A stretch of 62,522 nucleotides of DNA, filler included, from Sphacelaria rigidula (taxonomy: Eukaryota): the NCBI GenBank assembly GCA_964200075.2. It is 10 parts of 10 records of this genome, joined end to end, with 100 filler letters (N's around TTAATTAATTAA, not from the genome) between each part and the next. Parts side by side here need not be neighbours in the genome. Positions count along the whole stretch, not along the records: positions 37,575 to 43,736 come from CAXNAA020021834.1; 9 more parts are not named here. One strand, 5' to 3'. The notes beneath the pieces are model-generated. The model was not told where the DNA came from, searched no databases, and saw nothing but the letters and a program-made list of their open reading frames with translations. The position numbers and the translations under genes were made by a program. This document shows, in pieces, positions 28-60,704 of this stretch (positions are counted from its first letter, which is position 1; every line of letters starts with the position of its first letter).

Positions 28-98
28 AGGGGGGGGGGGCGTACTCATTTGTTGCTTGCCTTAGTCGTGTGAGCATTGACCACGCATCCCTTTCGAGA
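28..98 (-). mobile_element. LINE family B, 3' end fragment
   Basis: G-run followed by CGTACTCATTTGTTGCTTGCCTTAGTCG...CATCCCTTTCGAGAC, matching the 3' end of the longer copies at 9262-9826 and 47690-48985. Confidence 0.85.
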
Positions 99-850
99 CA
101 CAGCAAAAGTGTGTGTGTGTGGGGGGGGACTCTACTGGCTTCCGTCTGTACAGCTAGTAAGAACATATCATCATGTACCCAAATTCGGAACAGCTACTGT
201 ATGAAAACAAAACAGTTGGGTTTTCGAAACTAAGTCCAGATAATTAAAATCGCTCTTCTTACCCGAGGCAAAATGTCCGCTTGAGATCCGTTCAAACGTT
301 CGAAGATACACCGTAAAGGTGTGTATTGCGCAAGGAATCCGTCGAAAGATAAGTCAAGTGATATAATTAGAGGACGGCACTGCAGCACCGTATTCAAATA
401 CATCGCCGCATGAACAGTATACAGTAGTGAGTCCTCTACTTGAGAAATGAAAACTAGCAGCATTCAGCTTTCGTCTGAAACTACAGCATCAGAGTTGCGA
501 GGAAACTTGAAAGTACTCCTGACCGGTTCACGTCGACCCTTTTACTCACGGTTTCCCCATCTCGTCTGTTTTGTACATGTCGTATCCCAAATGCGTCCCA
601 TCAGTCAGCGGTACAGGTTAGTAGTATCACATGAGAAGAATTTCTCGGAATTAATCATGGAAAACAAAATGCTGCTGTTATGACGCTTCCTCTGTGCTGT
701 AAGCAAAGTCGGTTATGTTTACACGGGCCCTCAACCGCGTCCGGTGCGTTGGGCGTTTAGGTTTTTTGAGCACTGCGCAAGGTGGGCAAACGGCCGCAGA
801 AAAATCAGTCGGCTCGGAAATAACCGTTCCTCGCCCCTATTCCGAGGGGC

Positions 851-945
851 GGTGGGGGGGGGTACTCATGATTTTTGCCGTCATGAAAACATTGGCCTCG
901 CATCCCTACGCAGACGGGACGGGGCACTCGGGGTTGTCGCCGGGT
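851..945 (-). mobile_element. Repeat family A, 3' end fragment
   Basis: G-run followed by TACTCATGAT...GGCCTCGCATCCCTACG. Confidence 0.75.
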
Positions 946-2312: not shown

Positions 2313-2357
2313 AATGGTCAAACGACCAAGGCAAGCAACAACTGAGTACGCCCCCCC
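2313..2357 (+). mobile_element. LINE family B, extreme 3' fragment
   Basis: AATGGTCAAACGACCAAGGCAAGCAACAACTGAGTACG followed by a C-run. Confidence 0.8.
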
Positions 2358-3097: not shown

Positions 3098-5949
3098 TCA
3101 CTCTGAGTCGAAAGCGTCCAGGTGTATGTCACCCCGCTTCTTCACAATTTCTGCAAAGCCGGACAACGTTTTCGATGCGCCCCAGGTATCGCTGGCTGAG
3201 CTCTCTGTTGCGCTTAAATCGCTGCGGAAGCAGCAGACAGTTACCGTCAAGGAGATGAAAACACAAAAGACGAAAAATACACGAGAACAAAAAACAAGAA
3301 AAAAGAAGAGCAAGGGGATGGAGTAATTATAAGTAGTGGTTCCAACAGCTCCAAAAATAGCGATAGCGGGTCGAACTCAAGTTGCGAATCGAAGGGCGTT
3401 GCTATACATCGAGGGGAGGATATACAGATTCACGACCCAAATTTTATTCAGCCATGGGAAGGCACACACTGCCCTCCCCCCCGGCTTCGTAGGGATGCGA
3501 GGTCAATGCTCTCACGACTATGGCATGCAAAATCATGAGTACCCCCCTCCCCCGCTTGGCGATTGGTTGCGAGCATGGTCCGGCGAAAATCCGGCGTGCT
3601 CCGTCCCGGCTTTGCAGGGATGCGAGGTCAATGGTCTTATGACGATGACATGCAAGATCACAAGTACACCCCCCCCCTTTCCCCCTCCCCCGCAGCCAGA
3701 TCCCTTCACCGGCCAACAAAAAAGGGAATACCCTTACATGTTTGCCATCAAATATATCAACAAATAACGATACTCGGGAGTTGACACGAAGTACTGAAGG
3801 AGGCAGGCGTCAACTTTTGGCGACATCTTCTGTTTTTGGACACTATTTTTGATGAATTTAATATATATGCATGTGTGTGCATCAGACCCATAGTAAGGGC
3901 AAAAGCGTTTCCCCTCACCTGTTCATCGTACGAATCATCATTTCCACTGGCCCAGCCTCGTCGTCGTCGCCGTAAATGTCGCCGAGGCCACTCGCATGGG
4001 AGGACCCAGAACAAGGTAGCAACTGCCCACCGGCCCCTGCTTGCGGCAGGATTCCGCGTTCCACGGCCCTCAGGATGTACTCCCGAACGATATTGGCGGC
4101 CTTGTCCAGATCCTAGAGGGAGAGAGGGACTTTCATGTCAGCGCTGAAACTATACATTCTACACGTCTACAATAACTCAAAACAGAATGGCGATATCACC
4201 ATTTTGAAGCAGAGTGTCGTCTCATTTGCATATCCAAGTGTAGTGGTCGTCATCTGCGAAATACAGAAAATGTGTCATTGTTCATGGGGCTCCCCCAAGA
4301 TCATGAAGGAGTATCCATACGCCACCTGTTCGATAACGTGCCGCAAGACGTCATGAAAAAGGTGTATCGGATCCCCTCGACGGCGAAATCAAGTAGATAG
4401 CATCACAAACAAGTAATACAGGTTTGGATACGCGCCACCCTCCGAGAAGTATCAAACCCCCCCCGAGCAGAACAACCGTGGCGTTTGCAATGCCGACGAG
4501 CAGAGCGCGCGCGCGCACACACACACACCCGACACGACGCTCACAAGAGAAACTGCATCAGGAAGGTCAACACCCTCTTGTGACTCCACCAACTTTCACC
4601 GACGACACGTACATCTGTCACGCCAACACAAACCAACCCCACGACAACCGAACGTACCCCTGTCGACCCTCCAACGCAACTCACATGCTGCTCCCCACCA
4701 CACTCATCACCGTCACCATCATCATCATCATCGAAACATCCACTCCCTCCGTCCTCCCGCTGCCGCGGTACCCCCTTGTCCTTTCCGCCCTGCACGTTAT
4801 CGCCCTTGTCCTCGCTCTTTCCACCCTCGCCCTTTTCAGGATATTTATTTCCATGACCCTCCCCATGATTATCACCATCGATGCTCATTACCTCCGTCGT
4901 TTCCGTCGCCGCGCTATGACTCGTCATACTCCCCGACTCTTTCCCACTAGACGCGGGAGAAATAGCACCGACTTTCCCTACCCCACCTTCTACTTCTTCC
5001 TCGGTGCTGCTGTGACTTTGTCGGAGGGTGATCGGACGGCGAAATGGTCGGAACCACTCCAGCTCGAGAAGTTCCGACGGGGTCAGGCGTTCTTCGGGAA
5101 TCGGTTGAAGACATCCACGGAGGACTTCCTCGAATTCGGGCGAGTGCGCTGGTACGAGATTCACCATGTCGTCTACCGCTAAGTCTCGCTGAGAGGGCGA
5201 GAACGAATCAAAACACCATATTGGAAACAGAAATTGGACAAAATTGGAAATCCAGCTGTGAGTTGTTTGGCCGGGAGTCTGGGGGGTCGGGGGGAGGGGG
5301 TCAAACGCTGCGTGCTCTGCCGCACTGTGTGTACTGTTGACCTCACAAAAGAGCAGGACGCAGACAATCACTCAAGAGCAGCAACATGACACCGGGTATC
5401 CATGCCCCTATACAGATTCATAGATTTGTTACCGTCAGCCAACCAAAGCTCTGAAATTATCCAACACTTGAGCATACCGCAATGGCATATTATGATTGTT
5501 CCTGTTATGGCTACGTATACCCGCCCCTCCACCTCCCACCCCCCGCCTCTCCGCTTCCCCTCAGCCTCTACTGTATACAAAGTCATTGCAACATCGTATA
5601 TACTCTGTGCTGCGAACAAGGAACACCCCTCCATATGCCACACAACCCGAGGGCGGACGAAACACGATTAGAATAAACACATGAAAAAACAAAAAACAGC
5701 GACAACAAGACAAAAAGACATCACATACTAACGCACTTCACCCCCATTACTTGTGCCCTCACGACTTGCCTGCAAACGCTCATGCAGATCGATCTGCGAC
5801 ACCATTGAGTCAAACGGCAGACGCCTGCCCGCCATCTCCATTAATACAACCCCGATGGACCACACGTCGGCTGCTACGCCGTAGCCTGTTCCCGCCAGCC
5901 GCTCAGGCGACATGTAGCGTATTGTCCCAACCATTGTTTGTGCCATATC
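3098..5949 (-). CDS. MAP kinase kinase (STE7-like), 3' part; exons 5949-5770, 5188-4685, 4112-3919, 3221-3098
   Basis: Kinase subdomains [38 protein letters not shown] and [21 protein letters not shown]. Exons have AG acceptors and GT/GC donors with matching phases (0,0,2). Stop TGA at 3100-3098. Confidence 0.85.
3472..3690 (+). mobile_element. Two tandem copies of repeat family A inside a MAPKK intron
   Basis: GGGATGCGAGGTCAATG...AGTAC+C-run at about 3480-3553 and 3575-3677. Confidence 0.85.
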
Positions 5950-6004
5950 CTGATCAATGCGCCGTTTTTTTTTTTTCGTTTTTTTGTTGTGGAGGGATGG
6001 AGGG

Positions 6005-6163
6005 AAGGGAGCGCCCTCATGATTTTGCATGCTGTAGTCATGCGACCATTGACCTCGGAGAGGGGCGGCGGGGGGGGGGGGGGGGTACTCATGATCATGC
6101 ATGCCCTGGTCATATGACCATTGGCCTCCTGTTCCTACAAAGTCGGGGCGGATCCCGCCGGGG
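6005..6163 (-). mobile_element. Two tandem copies of repeat family A at the contig end
   Basis: CTCATGATTTTGCATGC... and G15-TACTCATGATCATGCATGCC... Confidence 0.85.
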
Positions 6164-6263
6164 NNNNNNNNNNNNNNNNNNNNNNNNNNNNNNNNNNNNN
6201 NNNNNNNTTAATTAATTAANNNNNNNNNNNNNNNNNNNNNNNNNNNNNNNNNNNNNNNNNNNN
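6164..6263. other. Artificial contig spacer. Identical spacers at 12427-12526, 18689-18788, 24951-25050, 31213-31312, 37475-37574, 43737-43836, 49999-50098, 56261-56360
   Basis: N44-TTAATTAATTAA-N44 (stops in six frames), recurring every 6262-6263 bp. Confidence 0.98.
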
Positions 6264-8820: not shown

Positions 8821-9057
8821 ATAGTTGAGGTATCGAGCGATAATTCTGTAACCCACACATCCTCCTCCCCACCCCCCGTATCGGAAGATCAGGAGCCACC
8901 CTGAAAGAGCCGCTGCAGGCAAGCAAAACCTACGATCGGGCTTTGTTATCTCTCTCCGGAACGCGCTTCCTCAAAACAACGATGTGTTACTGAACAAACT
9001 CAGCAAAGTACAGAAAAGGACGTGAGATAAAATGGTACTACTTAATTGACGTGATGT

Positions 9058-9135
9058 TCCGTCTCGAAAGGGATGCGTGGTCAATGGTCAAACTGCTGAG
9101 GCAAGCAACAAATCAGTATCCCCCTTCCCCCCCTC
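9058..9135 (+). mobile_element. LINE family B, 3' fragment
   Basis: CCGTCTCGAAAGGGATGCGTGGTCAATGG followed by a C-rich tail. Confidence 0.85.
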
Positions 9136-9261
9136 CATACACGTGAGCACGGTTCCAATTTGCGGAAGTCCCTCTTGACGAGTTTCGTAGGTCTCATTGG
9201 ACACATGTTCCTTTCTTTTTTTTCGATGTTTTGAGCCCTTCCCTCCCCCCTCCCCCCTCCT

Positions 9262-9826
9262 CAGACGCAAAGTAGACGAGGAAGAACACCTGAAGATATA
9301 CGGGGGGTTGAGAGAGGGGATAGGGATGACAGCATATCTGCATGGCCCCATGGACGCGCCGAAAATTTTGAAACTGCGATTTCGGGTGGGGGACCTAGAC
9401 CTGCCAGGAAGGAGAAAGAGATTTACCAGTACTCGAGTGGAGGAAGAAGTAGATGCACAGAATTGCCCCTGTGGCAAAGCAACAGAGAGCAGAAGTCATT
9501 CAGTGGCAGAATGTGGACTATACAAGGAGGAACGGGACGTGCTAGAGGGGGAAATGCGGGACGTGAACGAAGATAGCATGAAATCGTTTGATGCATTAGA
9601 CTGCAGCAAAAACGATAGTTACACTAGGAGATAGATGGTGGCCACAGACGGCGGAACAGGACGGGGATAAGATATGTAAAAGGTCTTTGTGTGCTGTATG
9701 GAAGAAACGTAATGAGCACCTATATGTTGGAGGTGTCTCTATTAGGAGTAGGAACGGTGCTCAATCTCAAAAGGGATACGTGGTCAATGGTCAAACGACC
9801 AAGGCAAGCAACAAATGAGTACGCCT
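9262..9826 (+). mobile_element. 5'-truncated LINE (family B): ORF2 C-terminal Cys/His domain plus 3' UTR
   Basis: LKIYGGL..YLHG..KLRFRVGDLDL..CPCGKATESRSHSVAECGLY, a non-LTR RT C-terminal zinc-binding motif, running into the family B tail. Confidence 0.85.
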
Positions 9827-12354: not shown

Positions 12355-12426
12355 ACGGTACTCCGTCTCGAAAGGGATGCGTGGTCAATGATCAAACGAC
12401 TGAGGCAAGCAACAAATGAGTACCCC
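12355..12426 (+). mobile_element. LINE family B, 3' fragment at the contig end
   Basis: Tail consensus ending ATGAGTACCCC. Confidence 0.88.
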
Positions 12427-12526
12427 NNNNNNNNNNNNNNNNNNNNNNNNNNNNNNNNNNNNNNNNNNNNTTAATTAATTAANNNNNNNNNNNNNNNNNN
12501 NNNNNNNNNNNNNNNNNNNNNNNNNN

Positions 12527-23062: not shown

Positions 23063-24950
23063 TTTTGCTTCGGCTCAAGAATTCTGGTATCATGTGTTGT
23101 CCCGTTTCTACGTACGGCAGTGTCTCACTAGAATTACCGCAAATTAAAATACCTGCAACCAAAAACGAATCGAACTCAATGCGGTATGCACTCGGTGCAT
23201 TTTTTGTCTCCATCAACTCATCAACCATTACATACTATTCATCAGGCTAACCCGAAAATCGACGCTGACGATTATGGTATTACTATCCCCTGCGGAGCTA
23301 TCCACCTCTCCCCATACTGTTACGGTAGAGCTACTCCGCACAGTCACCTATCCACTTTTTGCACCCTGGTCCCACCCTTTCTTAAGCGACGGGGCGGCGG
23401 GTGGGAAAGTCGATCGATCCTTTGCGAAGCGCGCTAGTTCGTGCCTACTTCTCTCTACTTGTGCTGCATATACCAGTCGGCCGCTGCTAGATGAATGCTA
23501 CTTGTTGCTGGTGATGGTTTCTGTACTCGTGTGTGCGGCAACCTAGCTGCGATGGCCAACTTTTCTACTGACAGCGGAACTGCAGCTGGGAAACAAGGAC
23601 AGACACCGTACCGTTTTTCTGTACGTACGTCCCACATTGTCAGAATTCGTAAAAGCCTACGCAAACGCCGCTTTCATACTGAACGCTACATTTTGCTTCT
23701 GCTCAAGAATTCTGGTATCATGTGTTGTCCCGTTTCTACGTACGGCAGTGTCTCACTAGAATGACCGCAAATTAAAATGCCTGCAACCGAAAACAAAACG
23801 AACTCAATGCGGTATGCACTCGGTGCATTTTTTGTCCCCATCAACTCATCAACAACTACATACTATTCATCAGGCTAATCCGAAAATCGACGCTGACAAT
23901 TATGTTATTATTATCTTCTGCGGAGCTATCCACCTCTCCCCCATTAGGCGAGCCTGATTGACAGTCGAGTATCTTGTTAAGCCCTAACTTTCAACGTCTG
24001 GCTACCCTACTCGCTGTTTTCCTAGCGCTACGGAGACGCCCTCTGCGCCCTCCCCCGCCTCCCTGACGTAAACCATAAACGCCCTCGACTTCCACCGTCC
24101 TGCTCGTTGAATCTGTAGTTTGGTGATTCCTCGAGCCGCTAGTTGCGTGGCCCCGCCGACCCTGCCTGAGTGTAAGGCCTATTCGGACCGGTCTCTACCC
24201 GCACGGCTGACCATGGTTCTTCACGCTGTTACTGCTTCAATCCGATTAAAAGCCTTCCATCCCGTCGGCGTGGCTCTCGTGACCAGGGGAGCGTGGCCTG
24301 GCAGTTGTGGGTGCACGTCCAACAAGACCAAAAGCGCCTCGAACGCGCCCGCCGGTACTCCGCCCGATCGCACCGAATCAACGATCCTTGCTCTCGTAAT
24401 GATGCAACCTGTCCTTTTTTTATCGGATTTGGAGGCAACGAAGTGAATCTTCACTTGGTTCGCAAACGCGCGGTTCACAAAATCTAACTGTACGTCTTCC
24501 CGGAAAAAATTGATGCAATTGCGGGTTAAGCAGAATTCTGGGTGGACGGTACCGTCGGGGTACGCCCACAACTCGGATGCCCCGCACAGCAGAAAATACG
24601 AGAGCGCGAGGCCAAGCCACATGATGTGACCCCCGTCCGGGTCCTCGGTTATTGTCTGTCGTCCTTGGTTTAGCAAATCCCAAGTCAACGGCCGCCTGAT
24701 GTGCGGTTTTCCTTGAGTCGATGCGTGAGCTCTATCGATCCCTTTTCCTACAGCCCTAATCCTGCCGTGCGTTCTAGGTATGTCCCATCCGACATACACT
24801 TTATGGAAATACTTGATAGCGGCGAGGTAACCTCTTATGGTGGAATGTTGGTTGTTGTGCACGAAACATCGCATAGCCATGAACTCGGTCAGTGCATTGA
24901 TCACGTCGTCCGGTTCATCGGTTTCAGTCAACCAGGGTGATTTTCCCTGT
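23063..24950 (-). mobile_element. Ngaro/PAT-like DIRS retrotransposon, 3' portion with split direct repeats
   Basis: Tyrosine recombinase followed by direct repeats of about 253 bp (23691-23944 and 23063-23315) separated by about 375 bp. Confidence 0.8.
24002..24950 (-). pseudogene. DIRS-type tyrosine recombinase pseudogene
   Basis: RRPLT, LSYFLLCGASE (catalytic R read as G), SKSD, HSGRVGGAT, GRWKSRAFMVYVR. In-frame stops at 24221-24223 and about 24180. Confidence 0.9.
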
Positions 24951-25050: not shown

Positions 25051-25490
25051 AACAGCGCCTGGATGATCATGAGGACCCCCCCCCCCCCCCCCCCCCTTCC
25101 GCGCGCGCAGATTGAAAATAAAACACTTGTTAGCAGAATTTTATCGGTTTGCGGAGTTTGTACTAGTTCTCTTGAATACCGTAGTCGTAAAACCATTGAC
25201 CTCGCACCCTACAAAGCCGGAATGGTCCCGCCGGGTTTTTGCCGAACCAGGCTTGCCGTCGTCAAGCCCGAAACGCCGTGATGTGTTCGGCGAGTCGGAT
25301 GAAGTGATTGCTTCGGAGAGGGCGGGTGTACTCATGATCATGCATGCCATAGTCCGATTCAGAGGGGGGGGCGGGGGGGGCGTACTCATTTGTTGCTTAC
25401 CTTAATCGTTTGACCATTGACCACGCATTCCTTTCGAGACGGAGCACCGTTCCTACTCCTAATAGAGGCACCTCCAACAGAGGGGGGGGG
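25051..25490. mobile_element. Cluster of family A fragments plus a family B 3' end (25363-25480, minus strand)
   Basis: Both tail consensuses present and bounded by G/C runs. Confidence 0.85.
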
Positions 25491-31183: not shown

Positions 31184-31212
31184 GGGGGGGGGTGTACTCA
31201 TGATCATGCTTG
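31184..31212 (-). mobile_element. Family A tail at the contig end
   Basis: G-run followed by TGTACTCATGATCATGC. Confidence 0.75.
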
Positions 31213-37403: not shown

Positions 37404-37474
37404 GAGGAGGGGGGAGGGGGGGGGGGAGGTGTACCGATGATCTCGCATGCCAGTGCCATATGACCTTTGACCTT
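37404..37474 (-). mobile_element. Family A tail at the contig end
   Basis: G-rich run followed by TGTACCGATGATCTCGCATGCC...TGACCT. Confidence 0.7.
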
Positions 37475-37574: not shown

Positions 37575-37660
37575 CCTCAACCGTGCTCCGTCTCGAAAGG
37601 GATGCGTGGTCAATTGTCAAACGACTAAGGCGAGCAACAAATGAGTACCCCCCGCCCTCC
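37575..37660 (+). mobile_element. LINE family B, 3' end
   Basis: Near-consensus tail ending ATGAGTACCCCCC. Confidence 0.88.
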
Positions 37661-41904: not shown

Positions 41905-42000
41905 TACAACAACAACAACAACAACAACAACAACGAAAGAACAAGAACAAGAACAACAACCACAACAACAGCAGCAGCAGCACAGCAGCAGCAGCAGCAG
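41905..42000. repeat. (ACA)n/(GCA)n compound microsatellite
   Basis: Direct reading. Confidence 0.9.
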
Positions 42001-42804: not shown

Positions 42805-43650
42805 GGAGGGGGAGACGTGCTCATGTGTTGCTCGCCTTAGTAATTTGACCATAGGCCGCGTATCTCTTTCAAGACCGAACACCGTTCCTCCTCCTAATAG
42901 AGACACCTCCAATATTTTGGCGTTCGCTACAATTTTTCCATACATTGCCGTTTACGTATCTTACCCCCTTCCTGTTCCGCTGTTTGTGGGCACCATGTAC
43001 TTCCTCTGTCTCATAAGTCTGGGCACGTACGGGCGTTTCATCGTTTGGATATTTCGACGTTGACGATCATCCTATGGTTGGGTTCGTTTGAGAGGCAAAG
43101 CGCAGACGAAGCTGATGAAGAAAAAAAATCGAAAAAAAAAAGCTGCTTTCATCACTGAGATTATGCCGAAATATACCCCACTTTGACCCCTTTTGATCCA
43201 TTTATATCATTGACCGATTTTGGACGTTTTTACGTCGAGCACTAGCAATTACACGCTAACAAAATGTAGGATGGGGCGTACGTAGGTCAACGTCAGGACA
43301 TGGCCAAAATCCATGATGGTTTCGCGATTTTCACATTTTCTGGCCCATTTTTCGCGATTTTTCGTGTTCCCGGGTCTCTCATGCTTTCCTGGGAAAACAA
43401 GCGAAAAATGGCCGTTTCTGGACCGACCTACTTTTTCTCGGCCGCGCGGCTGTATGGGTCAAGCACCCACGTTGTAGAAACAATCTTGATTTGAGCTAAA
43501 AAAACGCCGACGAATGTAATGTAAAAAGATCGAAAATCAAGTATCACACCGTAAAGGGTCCGTGCAATCACAAGGACCTTCACTTATGGCACAGAGGAAG
43601 TATCTCCTAGTATAGCGATCATTTTCTCACTGCTACTGTATCTAATGTAC
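42805..43650 (-). mobile_element. LINE family B fragment interrupted by a MITE
   Basis: 42805-42999 and 43603-43650 are collinear with the reverse complement of 9590-9822. Confidence 0.8.
43000..43600. mobile_element. Stowaway-like MITE with TA target-site duplication
   Basis: TA|CTTCCTCTGTCTCATAAGT ... ACTTATGGCACAGAGGAAG|TA. Confidence 0.88.
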
Positions 43651-43658
43651 CAATCTCA

Positions 43659-43736
43659 GGGGGGGGGGTGTACTCATGATCATGCATGCCATAGTCATCA
43701 GACCGTTGACCTCGCATCCCTACAAAGCCGGGACGG
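43659..43736 (-). mobile_element. Family A near-consensus copy at the contig end
   Basis: G-run TGTACTCATGATCATGCATGCCATAGTCATCAGACCGTTGACCTCGCATCCCTACAAAGCCGGGACGG. Confidence 0.9.
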
Positions 43737-47689: not shown

Positions 47690-48985
47690 GGAGGGTACTC
47701 ACTCGTTGATTGCCTTAATCGTTCGACCACTGACCACGCATCCCTTTCGAGACGGAGCACCGCTCCTACTCCTAGTAGAGACACCTTCAACATTCCGGCG
47801 CGCATTACGCTTCTTCCATAACTCATTACGTTCCTTCCACACATTGCGCCAAAACCTTCACATATCTAATACATTTGACGATTTCATGCCACCTTCGTTC
47901 ACGTCCCGTATTTCCCCCTCTAGCACATCCCGTTCCTCCTTGCATAGTTCACATTGTGCCACTTCATGACTTCTGCTCTCTATTGCTTTGCCACAGCGGC
48001 AGTTCTGTCCATTTACTTCCTCCTATTTCCGACTACTAGTATACCTCTTTCTTCTTTCCGGCAGGTCCAGGTCTTGACCCGAAACCGCAGTTTCAATTTT
48101 TTTGCCGCGTTCACAGGGCCATGCAGATAGGTTTTCATTCCGATCCCCTCTCTCAACTCCCCGGTTATCTCCAGGTGTTCTTTCTCGTCTACCTCACGTC
48201 TGAGCGCTCCTTTCCCCCCCCTTATTTTTATCGTGTTGCTCACTTTTGTCTTGTACCTCGCGCCTGCAACTAGGGACAGTATTTCGTCTTGGTTCCCTCT
48301 TATCTTCTTCCATACTTTCTCGACTTCTCTATCCCACCTTATGGTATCCCCTTTCGTACTTTTCTTCCATACAGCCCTATCAACGACAGCTGGCAGTCTC
48401 GTTCTCTGCATGTTCAAGCGATATTGCCATCTGAGTTTCCTCATGCCTTCTCTTTGTTCTAAGTGAGTACATTTCCAACTCTGCTCTCAAAACTGTATTA
48501 CTCGTCGTTTTCGAGCATCCAAGTATTTTCTTAGCTACTGCTATCTGCACTGTTTCTAACTTCTTCACCAATTTCACGTTCCACTCCCATACTTCTCCTA
48601 CATATTCCAGCTGTGGTACGATCAAGTTCATCAGGACACATATCTCAATCCTGGTGTCTGGGTGCGGGTCTCTGAGGATCATGTTCATGCTTCCTATCTG
48701 TGCCTTACCCTTTTATATTAGCTTGTTCATTTGTGCACTCCAAGAACAGTGTTTCGAGATCTCCATCTATATTGGTCTAGAATCGACAGTTCCTCTCCTC
48801 CCCACTTCCACCTGAACTCCAGTGGGTTTTTCTCATTCTCGTTGCTGACAAGTATCGCGCATATTTTCACATTCGCTATTACTCTCACTCGCTGTTCGCT
48901 GTCACTCTCCATTGCCTCGTGTATTCTTGCGCCTTGTCTATCTGTTTTTGCAATCCTTCTACTGCTTCTGAAATCCGCACAAAAC
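47690..48985 (-). mobile_element. Longest family B copy: decayed LINE RT (late domains and thumb), C-terminal Cys/His domain and 3' tail
   Basis: GLQKQIDKAQEYTRQWRVTAN, WKWGGEELSILDQY, IVPQLEYVGEVW, KKILGCSKTTSNTVLRAELEM, GMKTYLHGP, KLRFRV. Frameshifted. Confidence 0.92.
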
Positions 48986-51914
48986 CGTTGGACCTGAGGG
49001 GAAAACGACGGCCGAAACGGTAGGTGAGAGGCGATCTGAGTACGAAATAAAAGCGATATTTGGGAGTCGATGCTGAGGAGCTGTCGGCGGTTCCAAAAAT
49101 AGTGATTGGCACTCGAAAATTTAGCAGTAGGCGCCACTCTTTCCACGATGAGTGACCGCTCCCTTTCGTCAACAAGTACGAAAGATATCAGGCAAGATTT
49201 GCTGTCATGCCGTTGTAGGAGGCCAGAGAGGTCAAGCAGTCGCCAAACGGCCATCAGGTAGGGGCGTGCGGTAGGCCCATGGGACGAGGTGATCAACTTG
49301 CCAACAATTGAGGTAATGTTGCACTCACATACACACACATCTGCAGGCGCTTGATCTCGCTTCTCGATCCCCAATTGATTTTCCACAGCCATCAAAACAA
49401 GTCAACGGGATAGTCAGTGCCCCTGCAGAATGTGCCCCACTTCCGGTGCCCCTCAAAAGATTCGCGGAACAGAGGCGAAGAGTTTAGCGTGGAGGTAGTC
49501 ACCCATTTGGGCAGGTGACTGAAAGAAGGCATTGCTTTCCGAAGCGTCAGATCTCCCACGCGGTAAGGACGCAGTCGTAAGACCTGGAGGATGGCTACTG
49601 GATACGTTGTCAGAGCTTTGCAAGTCATGTGGGGTGAACATGTCTCATTAGCTCCTTGAACCAAGCGCACATTGCTTGACACGCTGCTTCCCTCCCGGAG
49701 TTGCCGTGTCAACGCAAAACCACGCAAGCAATCTAAGCTGACTTTCACTTTTACTTCCTCTGTGCCATAAGTAAAGGTCTTTATGGGGTACAAATCATAT
49801 CTCGCCAACCTAGTCACTCACGATACTACCGATAGGCTTGTTGAAAAGCTATGGATTTGAGGATACCTCTAAAAAAAAAAGGTTGAATCCGATTCGTAAT
49901 TACTGAGAAATAGTGTGTCGAATATTGGGAATTTTGGCGGGTTTTCTGGGATATATTTGAGAACTATTATGAGAATTGCCTTGTTTTTAGTGTGGGGGNN
50001 NNNNNNNNNNNNNNNNNNNNNNNNNNNNNNNNNNNNNNNNNNTTAATTAATTAANNNNNNNNNNNNNNNNNNNNNNNNNNNNNNNNNNNNNNNNNNNNTT
50101 CGTACCTTTCTTAGGCAAAAAACGAGAAGGTATACCTTTTCTAGGCCATTGCCCTATTTATTTTGTGTGTATTTTTCTCCGCCTGGAACACTGTCGTGTG
50201 CCTACAACTACACGTCGATATCCTACTCAAGTATTGTATATCAAAGGCTTCAGTGGCAGGCTACTACAGCAAGTGTATCGCGCCTCGTGGAGGGGCATTT
50301 CGGAACTGAAACATTTTATTCGTTGATTGACCGCTCACTCTCAATCGCACCATGGACTCTCGATCTCACTAACCCATTGTTATACAGTATACATCCATGT
50401 ATTTCGCCAGCGGCTAAACATACCTAATCCTTAGACAGCGATCCCCCCGCTGGTAGACTGAGGTAGACACTCCACTTTTGGGGTTCAGAATCATTCCTTT
50501 GTCACAACTCAAAATGCCTCCTCTACGGCGGAAGGGACCGGGGGTGCACAAGAGGCACATAGTTGTGGGAGTCAAAACACAGACGGTGGTGTGGTTGTCG
50601 ACCACCCGATCATTACGCCGCATATTTTTCTGTGCACCCTGTAGTGTATCGTGCCGCGGCTGCACGTGCGGTCTGCAGCGTACTGGATCTTGCAGTGTTG
50701 AACGTGCCGATTGTATGCAGCGTGCGTTTGAATATCTCACCATAACTACCGCCGCGAACGCCCCTGACTACCGTATAGAGCATTTGCTCGGCGATGGCGG
50801 TCGCCTCACCGTCGAAGTACTTGTCTACATTTACGTGCGTGGAATACTCGTGGCCGCCGCTCGCGTATTGCGCCATGACGGTCAATACCAGATGGAGGTG
50901 TGGAGCTAGTAGGACGCTCAGGCAGTACTTAACAGACAGACACAGTGTACCGAAGATGCTCGAACACCTGCTTTTTGGTTATATAATCTATTATGGTCGA
51001 TTTGGCATGATCAAGATGAGATTTGAGGGTAGACGGCGAAGGTGTCTCCCAGCTGGCTACCTCTACCGGAACAAAAAGGCTCATTTTTGACGACCGTGAC
51101 TGGTCAGATTGGTAATCCCGCGCCTCTCGGGCCTCGTGCACGGCTCATAATTTTCCGCGGGAAACTTCCAAACACACATGGTTGACTCCGTGAGCTTCTC
51201 CGATGCTCCGCGGAGAGACACCCCCCCCCTCTCTCAAAAATCTCCCCCCCTGAGCTCTGGAAACCCCGGGATGTCTCGGGACTGTCAGCCTGTACAACTG
51301 TTCCGAGGCGACGCTCGTCGTCTAAGGATTAAGGCCGTACTCGACACCGTGTACACATTTCCGTTGGTTCTGTACACGGGAGCCGCCTCTACAACGCGGA
51401 CCGCCGGAGCCTCTTTTGGGGTCAGGTCTATCACTCCTGACCCCGCCGCGTCTCCTCCTTTTCCTTCCTCCGGCGACTCTTCCGATGTTTCCGCGTCTTG
51501 CACTGTTTCCACCGCTGACTCTCCCATGAAGGAGTCACATGTGTTTGGCCAGTAGAGTCGCTCATTTTGATAATACCTACTCGACTACCCGTCAACTCGA
51601 TTACTCAATGATGATGAAGAGTAGCGCTTTGTACTGAAAGTGATATCGAAGGCGTTGCGAGGTATAGAGTATGTACTGCCGTGGGTGGGGGTTGGTACGA
51701 TGGGGCGCTGGGGCAAGCAGGTTCATTGTTCATTCACCCGCATGCTTCTTTTTTTCTTTATGGCCATCATTCGCTCATACTCCCTGTAGTTTGTAACGTA
51801 ACGCCACCCATCTAATTGATGATCATCGTTCGCCCATGTATTCAACATAGTCAGGGAGGTGACGTCACGAAGTCGCCGACGGTCACGGATACTCACCATA
51901 CCCAGGTGATACCG

Positions 51915-52221
51915 TACTCTATACTCAAGTATTACTGAGAGTGCTTACTCAACATTTGAGTAGGGTATTAGAGGTCGTACTCGATCTACTCGAAATTTGA
52001 GTAGAGTATGTGAGGCCGCACTCGACCTACTCAAAAATTGAGTGAGAGTATTGAGGTCATACTCAACTAATATTCTATACTCAAGTATTACTGAGAGTGC
52101 TCACTCATTATTTGAGTAGAGCATTGAGGTCGTACTCGATCTACTCAAATTTTTGAGAAGAGAATACTCGAGTATTTCACTCGAGTACCCAAAAGTGCAT
52201 ACTCTACTCGACCTGCCCTTG
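51915..52221. repeat. Tandem about 41-bp TACTC/GAGTA motif array ending in a hAT-like TIR
   Basis: Repeats of GTACTCGA.CTACTC.AAATTTGAGTAGAGTAT ending CTCTACTCGACCTGCCCTTG. Confidence 0.8.
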
Positions 52222-55039: not shown

Positions 55040-55268
55040 TTACTCTACTCGATGTTCGAGGAGGTCGAGTACGGCCTCAAATAGTCTACTCAAATTTTGA
55101 GTAGGTCGAGTACGGCCGCCAATACTCTCCTCAAATTTTGAGTAGGTTGAGTACGACTCTCGAATACTCTACTCAAATTTTGAGTAGGTCGAGTATGGCC
55201 TCAAATACTCCACTCAAATTTTGAGTAGGTCGAGTACGACATCAAATACTCTACTCAAATTTTCAGTA
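55040..55268. repeat. About five tandem 41-bp units (TACTCTACTCAAATTTTGAGTAGGTCGAGTACGGCCTCAAA)
   Basis: Direct reading. Reverse-complement relative of 51915-52221. Confidence 0.9.
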
Positions 55269-56360: not shown

Positions 56361-56426
56361 CTTTGTAGGGATGCGAGGTCAATGGTCTGATGACTATGGC
56401 ATGCATGATCATGAGTACACCCCCCT
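56361..56426 (+). mobile_element. Family A near-consensus copy at the contig start
   Basis: CTTTGTAGGGATGCGAGGTCAATGGTCTGATGACTATGGCATGCATGATCATGAGTACACCCCCC. Confidence 0.9.
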
Positions 56427-59649: not shown

Positions 59650-59802
59650 CTTCATGCGACTCGACCACACATCACAGCGCTTCGGGCTTGTCCGGCGAAG
59701 ACCCGGCGTACTCCGTCCCGGCTTATAGGGTTGCGGAAGTCAACAGTCTTATGAATACGACATGCAAGATATGAGTACACCACCCCTCCCCCTCCTCCTC
59801 CC
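59650..59802 (+). mobile_element. Family A longer, diverged copy
   Basis: Upstream part matches the reverse complement of 25265-25312. Tail ATGAGTAC followed by a C-rich run. Confidence 0.75.
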
Positions 59803-60617
59803 AAGTGGGACTCTGCAGTCTTGGTGGATACACTCACCTATCCCGGGATCTTCAATTGATTGGTCGATTGATTGACACACATCAACCGTCACCACGGGAT
59901 ACATGTACCCGACGTCAACAAAACGGGAAAATTCGCCAGAGAAACCTCGGGACCGGTGAATTCCCGCGCGTGTCCGTCGAGGATTCATCACGCCTCCACG
60001 GTGGCACTACCCAGTAAACAACTGTATACGTATGTCGGCTGAATGAAACAGAGGTCCAGGGTTCGAACCTCGATCCCGATCGTCGTGACCAATAATGAAA
60101 GAGTACCCCAAGGTCAAGCGCGCGGCCAAAAAACCCTCAAAATTGGTGGGGGATGGGCAATCAGATTTCACTCATCCGCGAACAAATCTTCTGCGGAGAT
60201 TGCACGCTTGGGTACCCTAATACACGCCGGATATCTTTGAAAAGAGGTGCAGCGATATCTTCAATACTAGCAGGTGAGAGCGCATATTCCTAAGGTACTT
60301 CTCTCGCCCCAAAAAAGCAAGAAGAGACCCATCGAGAAGGGGATGAGGGATGGGGCGGAGATACTACCCTACGATTGATTGATTGTCGCACATTAATATC
60401 AACATTAATATTACCAATAACGGATCAATATCACCACGAACCCAACCGGGGTCAAAACATGGACGTGCCCAAGCAAAATAAACGGAAACAATCGTCAATA
60501 AAGGAAACTTGAAAGGGGAGTAGAGAATGGACTTCATGGGAAAAAACGGAAAGGGGAGTAGAGAAAAAACGGAGCATTCAGGAAACCATAGGGGGACAAC
60601 GATAACACCCCCACTAA

Positions 60618-60624
60618 TAACAAT

Positions 60625-60703
<79 letters not shown>
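60618..60703. repeat. (AAC)n microsatellite
   Basis: Direct reading. Confidence 0.97.

Positions 60704-60704
<1 letters not shown>

What the first reader, a model, noticed from the sequence alone, without database searches (positions are those of the whole stretch)
37583..37654. Two divergent repeat families share a foldable 3' RNA structure
Seen: B reads GTGCTC-CGTCTC-GAAA-GGGATG-CGTGGTCAAT-GGTC-AAAC-GACT-AAGGCAAGCAACAAAT-GAGTAC. A reads GTGCTC-CGTCCC-GGCTTTGTA-GGGATG-CGAGGTCAAT-GGTC-TGAT-GACT-ATGGCATGCATGATCAT-GAGTAC. Putative stems (GTGCTC/GAGTAC, CGTCYC/GGGATG, GGTC/GACT) are conserved while the loops differ. B has a GNRA tetraloop, and GTACTC variants (near 12358 and 59708) keep the closing pair. 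Inference: a multibranch RNA recognised by the RT, as in stringent LINE/SINE pairs, and possibly a new structured RNA motif.
Basis: partly seen in the sequence, partly recalled or inferred. Interest (0 to 1): 0.7.

Follow-up and report, generated by a model that had tools for sequence, protein, structure and literature searches.

The report
Shared 3' tail of algal LINEs
This is the 66-base 3' end of a brown-alga RTE-X retrotransposon, shared with a small parasitic partner element as a likely recognition signal for the reverse transcriptase; the pairing is already published and only the predicted RNA fold is new.

Summary
A 66-nt module (family B) and a 72-nt version (family A) occur 21 times in the window, each followed by a C-rich tract.

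B is the 3' end of an RTE-X-type LINE of a brown alga. A is a non-autonomous partner. This partnership, the (C)n tail, C-rich TSDs and tandem copies are already recorded for Ectocarpus (PMC12477816, supplementary table).

New here:
- The B module is coding. An intact 1,382-codon EN-RT frame ends at a TGA 4 nt before the (C)n.
- A and B consensus sequences, folded separately, give the same three-branch shape.
- Only 1 of 11 A/B substitutions lies in B's 42 paired positions (p≈3e-4).
- All 8 positions that vary among tens of thousands of genomic A contigs are unpaired (p≈3e-4).
- Dead-copy decay hits stems at the neutral rate (64%).

Against the fold:
- There is no compensatory covariation (1 double change in 353 cells).
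- MFE z-scores are weak (−1.4 to −1.75).
- The closing stem P1 is outcompeted once upstream sequence is included.
- The GNRA loop is not conserved.
- Rfam has no match.

Verdict: an ordinary stringent LINE/partner tail with a plausible but unproven fold.

The parts
37583..37648 (+). The finding: a 66-nt B module (LINE 3' end), 5'-truncated just upstream by the piece boundary. It translates ...APSRKGCVVNCQTTKASNK*.
   Evidence: 95.1 bits
37649..37661 (+). C-rich tract that follows the module, the (C)n-type tail.
47695..47760 (-). B module at the end of a decayed LINE copy.
47761..49190 (-). 5'-truncated, frameshifted RTE-X LINE ORF2 remnant: end of the RT domain, the 'LKLRFRV..' region, a Cys/His knuckle, then the frame that runs into the module.
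9260..9822 (+). A second 5'-truncated LINE 3' portion ending in a B module (9757-9822). It matches 48204-47691(-).
25382..25447 (-). B module, followed by a C tract and then an A fragment (25324-25354), forming a tail array.
12358..12423 (+). B module with the GTACTC variant, preceded by the C-rich tail of another copy.
9054..9119 (+). B module. It is the only copy with a change on both sides of a pair (A1-T66).
42817..42882 (-). Old, diverged B module (13 differences from the consensus).
41..106 (-). B module, with its 5' ~7 nt replaced by flank.
2313..2349 (+). 5'-truncated B fragment preceded by a C-rich tract.
3596..3667 (+). Complete 72-nt A module. This was the reference onto which contigs were laid. 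Its upstream A body starts near 3554.
3483..3542 (+). 5'-truncated A module, in tandem with the next copy.
43670..43736 (-). Young A module, cut by the piece end.
56361..56418 (+). Young A module, cut by the piece end.
59708..59778 (+). Diverged A module with the GTACTC variant.
862..927 (-). Diverged A module with an internal deletion.
6085..6156 (-). Diverged A module, followed by a second A fragment (6010-6057).
25160..25230 (-). Old A module (16 differences from the consensus).
37426..37473 (-). A fragment, cut by the piece end.
31189..31212 (-). A fragment (last 24 nt), cut by the piece end.

Best explanation
The 66-nt module is the extreme 3' end of a brown-alga RTE-X-type LINE. It consists of the last 59 nt of the single EN-RT reading frame, the TGA stop and 4 more nt, and is followed by a (C)n run. 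A 72-nt, non-coding version ends a non-autonomous family (A), which resembles the published RTEX-N1/N2.

Most likely mechanism (inferred): the LINE protein recognises this module on its own RNA and, in trans, on A RNA. The endonuclease nicks C/G-rich DNA, and the terminal C run pairs with the nicked G-rich strand to prime reverse transcription. That would explain the C-rich flanks and the head-to-tail tail arrays.

The module probably presents two hairpin arms. P2 is CGTCYC/GGGATG. The second is a long P3 arm made of three stacked pieces: TGGTC/GACTA, then GTC/GGC, then GC/GC. A closing stem, P1 (GTGCTC/GAGTAC), is less certain.

Shown: family identity, the coding overlap, the shared module, and non-random conservation of the predicted paired positions. 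Inferred: RT binding, priming by the C run, and that pairing rather than sequence is what matters.

Sub-odds: shared LINE/partner tail 0.9; cis recognition signal 0.75; fold real and required about 0.5.
For: LINE identity:
- The ORF remnant upstream of a B copy is closest to Ectocarpus proteins and to a 1,328-aa protein with RVT_1 and Exo_endo_phos domains.
- The intact element in L182 has a 1,382-codon frame with Exo_endo_phos and RVT_1. That frame ends at a TGA inside the module, 4 nt before a G and a run of 13 C.
- All 8 B copies tested translate to the same C-terminal peptide and stop.
- Four database ORFs end with the same peptide.

Published match (PMC12477816, supplementary table read): RTEX-1/2 have a single EN-RT ORF, a (C)n 3' end and C-rich TSDs. 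RTEX-N1 shares '60 bp 3' end 83%' and occurs in tandem. Here the A and B consensus differ at 11 of 66 aligned positions, which is 83% identity.

Fold:
- Consensus A and B, folded separately, give the same architecture, and RNAalifold agrees.
- Only 1 of 11 A/B substitutions lies in the 42 of 66 paired positions, and it converts U.G to C-G. Binomial p = 3e-4, 1 of 66 circular shifts is as extreme, and 0.7% of 2,000 masks from shuffled-sequence folds are.
- Both indels lie in loop 2 and the linker.
- Neutral control: within-family decay falls in paired positions 29 of 45 times (B) and 64 of 100 times (A), against 64% expected. Fisher test of fixed differences versus decay gives p = 0.0015.
- Genome-wide, 6,463 to 33,005 contigs per run were laid from 4 runs. 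The 8 module positions with an alternative letter at 5% or more are all unpaired, out of 36 paired and 24 unpaired positions covered (hypergeometric p = 2.9e-4).
- P2 and P3 persist with natural flanks, with pair probabilities of 0.55-0.9.

The tail-encoded peptide is 20 of 21 identical between LINE lineages that are 69.5% identical over the last 200 aa.

RTE-type LINEs typically have an extremely short, repeat-made 3' UTR (PMC2887409, passages read).
Against: - No compensatory covariation. On the curated alignment of 22 real copies, 1 of 353 cells has a change on both sides, against 3-7 in the slid controls. All other pair-preserving changes are wobble to Watson-Crick transitions.
- The higher counts come from forced or spurious rows in the model-fitted alignment.
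- MFE is not significantly low. The consensus z-scores are -1.75 (B) and -1.37 (A), and 5.8% and 9.3% of 1,000 shuffles are as stable. The copy at the finding itself gives z = -0.92.
- P1 has probability 0.0 once 60 nt or more of upstream sequence is included. Enforcing it costs 4.7 kcal/mol. Both families carry an upstream segment that can pair with GTGCTC instead.
- Two A-specific extra pairs in the A MFE (positions 51 and 56) are polymorphic in the genome, so they are not conserved.
- Module positions 61-72 were poorly covered by the laid contigs.
- Conserved blocks could be read as sequence rather than as helices.
- No binding, probing or retrotransposition data exist.
Confidence: 0.6

Rival explanations
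1. The module is a recognition signal read as primary sequence, either as single-stranded RNA or at the cDNA/DNA level. The complementarity between conserved blocks is incidental.
For: No covariation. The stems are identical in sequence between A and B. MFE z-scores are weak. P1 is unstable in context.
Against: Variable positions coincide with the loops and internal loops of a fold predicted from B alone. Both indels sit in a hairpin loop and the linker. Two separately folded consensus sequences give the same architecture. The one substitution in a paired position turns U.G into C-G.
Confidence: 0.25
2. The similarity is only recent common descent: A captured the LINE tail not long ago, with no selection on the module.
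For: A and B are 83% identical over the module, and the stems are unchanged.
Against: Neutral divergence should be spread evenly, as it is for dead copies (64% in paired positions). Fixed A/B differences (1 of 11) and genome-wide A polymorphisms (0 of 8) avoid paired positions.
Confidence: 0.04
3. Conservation reflects protein-coding constraint on the LINE's C-terminal peptide, not an RNA element.
For: The B module encodes the last ~20 residues of ORF2. The peptide is 20 of 21 identical between lineages that are 69.5% identical over 200 aa.
Against: Family A keeps the same blocks although a 5-nt and a 1-nt insertion destroy the frame, and the B frame hits a stop in A. A/B differences fall on all three codon positions (my own reading of the positions listed).
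Confidence: 0.06
4. The module is a self-cleaving ribozyme or another known processing RNA.
For: It is a compact multibranch prediction, and tandem arrays of ~100-nt units exist.
Against: Rfam gives no match at gathering score on the window. It gives none at E<=10 around the finding. Elsewhere there are only far-sub-threshold chance hits. The loops are not conserved. Ribozymes in non-LTR elements are, as I recall, at the 5' end.
Confidence: 0.03

Closest known systems
RTEX-1/RTEX-2_Ec32 LINEs and RTEX-N1/N2_Ec32 non-autonomous elements of Ectocarpus (PMC12477816: main-text passages and supplementary annotation table read)
   Same: Single EN-RT ORF, a (C)n 3' end, C-rich TSDs or flanks, tandem copies, and a non-autonomous partner sharing a ~60-100 bp 3' tail at ~83% identity. 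All of these are seen here.
   Different: The paper's text and the four held supplements do not mention a stem-loop, hairpin or secondary structure (0 occurrences). They also do not say that the ORF ends inside the shared tail. The library FASTA files could not be read, so identity with those consensus sequences was not checked directly.
Stringent-type LINE/SINE pairs with a 3' stem-loop recognised by the RT: eel UnaL2, zebrafish ZfL2-1/2 (PMC4176376 passages read; PMC1636434 seen as abstract in a search listing)
   Same: The LINE and its partner share a 3' tail followed by a simple repeat, and a hairpin in the tail is the proposed protein-binding signal.
   Different: Those are L2-clade elements with a single stem-loop in a true 3' UTR whose loop is the specificity determinant. 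Here the module is coding in the LINE, two arms are predicted, and the loops are the variable parts. Nothing here is tested experimentally.
RTE-clade LINEs with extremely short, repeat-made 3' UTRs (PMC2887409, passages read)
   Same: A single AP-endonuclease and RT ORF whose stop codon is followed almost at once by a simple repeat. Truncated 3' ends are abundant.
   Different: There the repeats are di- or trinucleotide units, and no shared structured module is described. Here the repeat is a C run, and a defined 66-nt module is shared with a partner.

Membership tests
Stringent LINE / non-autonomous partner sharing a 3' tail | An autonomous LINE and a non-coding short family end in the same tail sequence. 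| tested here: met
   B follows LINE ORF2. A has frame-breaking indels. The module is 83% identical between them.
Stringent LINE / non-autonomous partner sharing a 3' tail | The tail ends in a simple repeat instead of poly(A). | tested here: met
   A C-rich run follows nearly every copy. The loose-end consensus sequences are C runs.
Stringent LINE / non-autonomous partner sharing a 3' tail | The tail forms a stem-loop that the RT needs. | tested here: inconclusive
   The same fold is predicted for A and B, and variation avoids the paired sites. However there is no covariation, the z-scores are weak, and there is no experiment.
Stringent LINE / non-autonomous partner sharing a 3' tail | The partner is mobilised in trans by the LINE protein. 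| not testable with these tools
   This needs a retrotransposition assay.
RTE-X clade LINE (RTEX-1/2_Ec32-like) | A single ORF with an AP-type endonuclease followed by RT. | tested here: met
   Exo_endo_phos at residues 193-415 and RVT_1 at 763-1012 of the 1,382-aa frame.
RTE-X clade LINE (RTEX-1/2_Ec32-like) | A (C)n 3' terminus with C-rich flanks, and a very short 3' UTR. | tested here: met
   TGA, then 4 nt, then a G and a run of 13 C. This matches the published annotation.
RTE-X clade LINE (RTEX-1/2_Ec32-like) | RT phylogeny places it within RTE-X. | not tested
   No Repbase or reference RT set was at hand. The clade name rests on the paper's annotation of the matching Ectocarpus families and on the closest hits being Ectocarpus proteins.
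Any described RNA family, including self-cleaving ribozymes (Rfam 15) | A covariance-model match at or near the gathering score. | tested here: not met
   0 matches. The only other matches are 21.5 bits against a gathering score of 53.5, and 18.2 against 100, both elsewhere.
SINE in the strict sense (family A) | A Pol III promoter head derived from tRNA, 7SL or 5S. | not tested
   Only ~60 nt of A body was seen upstream of the module. The paper also leaves the head unknown.

The most novel reading that the evidence does not exclude
The RT-recognition signal of RTE-X LINEs is a two-arm (possibly three-way-junction) RNA embedded in the last ~20 codons of the ORF. The C-terminal peptide would then be conserved mainly because of the RNA. 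The non-coding partner shows the fold freed from coding constraint, with a larger loop 2 and free loop 3 and linker. This would be an undescribed structured cis-element class, possibly shared by RTE-X elements beyond brown algae: a lineage only 43-45% identical still encodes APS..G.VVN.
Probability: 0.4. Interest if true: 0.4.

Novelty: new member of a known kind. Interest (0 to 1): 0.27.

Why it matters
These elements are the most abundant repeats in the model brown alga's genome. In print, RTEX-N1 alone has more than 6,000 copies, and here there is about one tail per 3 kb.

A defined recognition module would help explain how the partner hijacks the LINE machinery, why copies pile up in C-rich tracts and tandem arrays, and why assemblies break there.

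The coding/cis-element overlap is a tidy case of dual constraint, and it gives clear mutants for a retrotransposition assay.

Beyond TE biology the finding is ordinary. It fits the long-established stringent LINE/SINE model, and its sequence-level part is already published.

Tried and rejected
- **Viral-contig scan** with the 20-mer: 0 hits.
- **Genome-contig scan**: 57 hits. 56 lie in a bacterial coding motif (..AVMGCVVNGPGE..), confirmed as GcpE for one locus, so they are a coincidence. One real copy (L159) sits in a contaminated MAG. Searching that MAG gave no further copy: 1 real match of 6.
- **No whole genome held**.
- **MAFFT on A+B** put the loop-2 indel at the 5' end, so that alignment was not used.
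- **The model-fitted alignment A3** contains a spurious row (52077), forced flanks and misregistered rows. Its covariation figures were set aside in favour of the curated count.
- **Sequencing runs**: no RNA holder was listed. All runs are contigs, so they say nothing about transcript ends or expression.
- **Protein route to more lineages**: a region search gave only 4 full-length relatives. The representative search gave 2,072 hits, mostly short fragments of decayed copies, and proteins cannot show nucleotide covariation.
- **The paper's TE library FASTA files** could not be read.
- **TSDs** were not established. One candidate at the 9054 copy was ambiguous on reading.
- **Ribozyme reading** rejected on the Rfam results.

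Full report
**What is there.** The interval 37583-37654 holds a 66-nt unit (37583-37648) followed by a C-rich tract. The unit's 20-nt core occurs 13 times in the window at up to 3 mismatches, against 0.00 expected. An HMM built from 10 copies finds 21 copies or fragments.

The window is ten ~6.16-kb pieces joined by N/TTAATTAATTAA spacers, and several pieces begin or end inside a copy. No genome is held for it.

Two families exist. B is 66 nt, and all nine full copies align without gaps. A is 72 nt, with 5 extra nt in the first hairpin loop and 1 extra nt in the 3' linker.

The local copy differs from it at two positions. Almost every copy is followed by a C-rich run. Many 5'-truncated copies are also preceded by one, and tails sit head to tail at 3483/3596, 6085/6010 and 25382/25324.

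**What it belongs to.** The B copy at 47695-47760(-) lies directly after a decayed LINE ORF2 C-terminus. The closest relatives of that remnant are Ectocarpus proteins and a 1,328-aa protein with RT and AP-endonuclease domains.

A genome-contig scan found one genuine copy in a contaminated bacterial MAG. Its 5.3-kb contig (L182) carries an intact element. The element has a 1,382-codon stop-to-stop frame with Exo_endo_phos and RVT_1 domains. The frame runs through the module and ends at a TGA 4 nt before a G and a run of 13 C.

All 8 B copies tested in the window translate to the same C-terminal peptide and stop. Four database ORFs end the same way. So in the LINE the 'tail' is coding and the 3' UTR is almost nil.

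That arrangement is typical of RTE-type elements (PMC2887409, passages read). Family A cannot encode this peptide, because its indels break the frame.

**Already in print.** The 2025 Ectocarpus TE paper (PMC12477816) covers most of this. I read main-text passages and the supplementary annotation table.
- RTEX-1 and RTEX-2 are listed as single EN-RT ORF elements with a (C)n 3' end and C-rich TSDs.
- RTEX-N1 (607 bp) is noted as tandem-prone, with '60 bp 3' end 83%' to RTEX-1/2.
- RTEX-N2 (188 bp) is listed with a similar tail.

My A/B consensus comparison gives 11 differences in 66 aligned positions, which is 83% identity. The sequence-level finding is therefore known.

The words stem-loop, hairpin and secondary structure do not occur in that paper's text or in its four held supplements. 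The library FASTA files and a PDF could not be read. Searches for RTE-X terms, and for brown alga plus stem-loop terms, found no paper on such a fold.

**Evidence for the fold.**
- Consensus B and consensus A, folded separately, give the same shape. It consists of P1 (1-6/61-66 in B numbering), P2 (8-12/17-21) and a long P3 arm (22-23/52-53, 27-29/47-49, 32-36/41-45).
- RNAalifold on the B copies agrees and adds the 7-22 pair.
- Taking the fold predicted from B alone, only 1 of 11 A/B substitutions lies in the 42 paired positions, and it changes U.G to C-G. Binomial p is 3e-4. Only 1 of 66 circular shifts is as extreme, as are 0.7% of 2,000 masks from shuffled-sequence folds.
- Both indels lie in loop 2 and the linker.
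- In the neutral control, substitutions in dead copies relative to their family consensus fall in paired positions 29 of 45 times (B) and 64 of 100 times (A). The expected share is 64%. The Fisher test of fixed differences against decay gives p = 0.0015.
- The genome-wide test is independent. I laid Logan contigs of four runs (6,463 to 33,005 contigs each) on the complete A copy. The 8 module positions with an alternative letter at 5% or more are loop 2, loop 3, two internal-loop positions and the linker.
- All 8 are unpaired in the common fold, out of 36 paired and 24 unpaired covered positions (p = 2.9e-4). The reference copy's three private changes revert to the consensus in more than 92% of depth.
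- P2 and P3 keep pair probabilities of 0.55-0.9 when up to 200 nt of upstream ORF and the C run are included.

**Evidence against the fold.**
- There is no compensatory covariation. On a curated alignment of 22 real copies with flanks masked, 87.5% of 353 cells pair, against 30-45% when partners are slid. That is expected for a fold derived from the consensus.
- Only 1 cell (A1-T66 in the 9054 copy) has a change on both sides, against 3-7 in the slid controls.
- The higher figures from the model-fitted alignment rest on a spurious hit and on forced flanks, so I discard them.
- MFE is not significantly low. The z-score is -1.75 for B and -1.37 for A, and -0.92 for the copy at the finding.
- P1 vanishes (probability 0.0) once 60 nt or more of upstream sequence is present. 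Enforcing it costs 4.7 kcal/mol.
- In both families an unrelated upstream segment can pair with GTGCTC instead.
- The GAAA loop is B-specific and is simply the Arg-Lys codons. A has a 9-nt loop there.
- Contig cover of module positions 61-72 was poor, because the reference copy is diverged there.

**Other constraints.** Two LINE lineages that are 69.5% identical over the last 200 aa share 20 of 21 tail-encoded residues. A lineage only 43-45% identical still encodes APS..G.VVN. This fits dual constraint but does not separate protein function from RNA function. Ribozyme or other known-RNA readings find no support in Rfam.

**Mechanism (inferred).** The module is the cis signal by which the RTE-X protein picks its template, and family A parasitises it. 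This is the stringent LINE/SINE model, in which a 3' stem-loop is bound by a region of ORF2p (PMC4176376, passages read).

The C run probably anneals to G-rich nicked target DNA to prime reverse transcription. That would account for the C-rich flanks and for insertion into earlier tails. It would also account for the ~100-nt 'goes back' joints and the C-run loose ends seen in the contigs.

**Verdict.** The shared tail is known biology for this clade and host. The coding overlap and a statistically supported but covariation-free fold are modest additions. Interest is low to moderate.

Noticed in passing
whole window; spacers at 6164-6263, 12427-12526, and so on every 6,262 nt: The window is ten equal ~6.16-kb pieces joined by N44-TTAATTAATTAA-N44 spacers. 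Several pieces begin or end inside an RTE-X tail copy, as if contigs broke at this repeat.
   Followed up: partly
L119-L175 except L159 (genome-contig loci): The 20-mer core of the tail is identical to the codons of a conserved bacterial motif (..AVMGCVVNGPGE..) in 56 of 57 hits. One locus was confirmed as GcpE/IspG (PF04551, E = 1.3e-53). This is a coincidence of a 6-residue peptide, not homology.
   Followed up: yes
L159 / L182 (G001 contig C43, 5,259 nt): A contig in a bacterial MAG is an intact brown-alga-type RTE-X LINE, so it is eukaryotic contamination of the bin. No other copy was found in that MAG.
   Followed up: partly
window 3560-3595 and L182 175-205(-): In both families an unrelated upstream segment (A: GAGCAT, enclosing a CCGG..CCGG hairpin; B: GGAGTA) is complementary to the module's first six bases. 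This gives an alternative to stem P1. It could be chance or a conserved switch.
   Followed up: partly
window 24221-24949 (-): A 242-aa open frame with no Pfam hit. From memory it resembles the N-terminal part of a tyrosine recombinase of DIRS/Ngaro-type elements, which are abundant in Ectocarpus according to the paper.
   Followed up: no
window 5728-6162 (-): A protein-kinase exon (Pkinase, E = 3.9e-13) whose open frame runs on through two A tail copies (6085-6156 and 6010-6057). The tails probably lie in an adjacent intron.
   Followed up: no
window 51915-52165, 55041-55268, 60616-60704, 41906-41997: Unrelated tandem repeats: ~41-nt units in two blocks on opposite strands, and a 6-nt microsatellite shared between two pieces.
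   Followed up: no
proteins P0018, P0019, P0024, P0041 and others: Predicted proteins that lost the tail's TGA stop read on as ..VRPPPP.., which is the (C)n tract translated. Many database 'proteins' of this family are decayed LINE fragments.
   Followed up: partly
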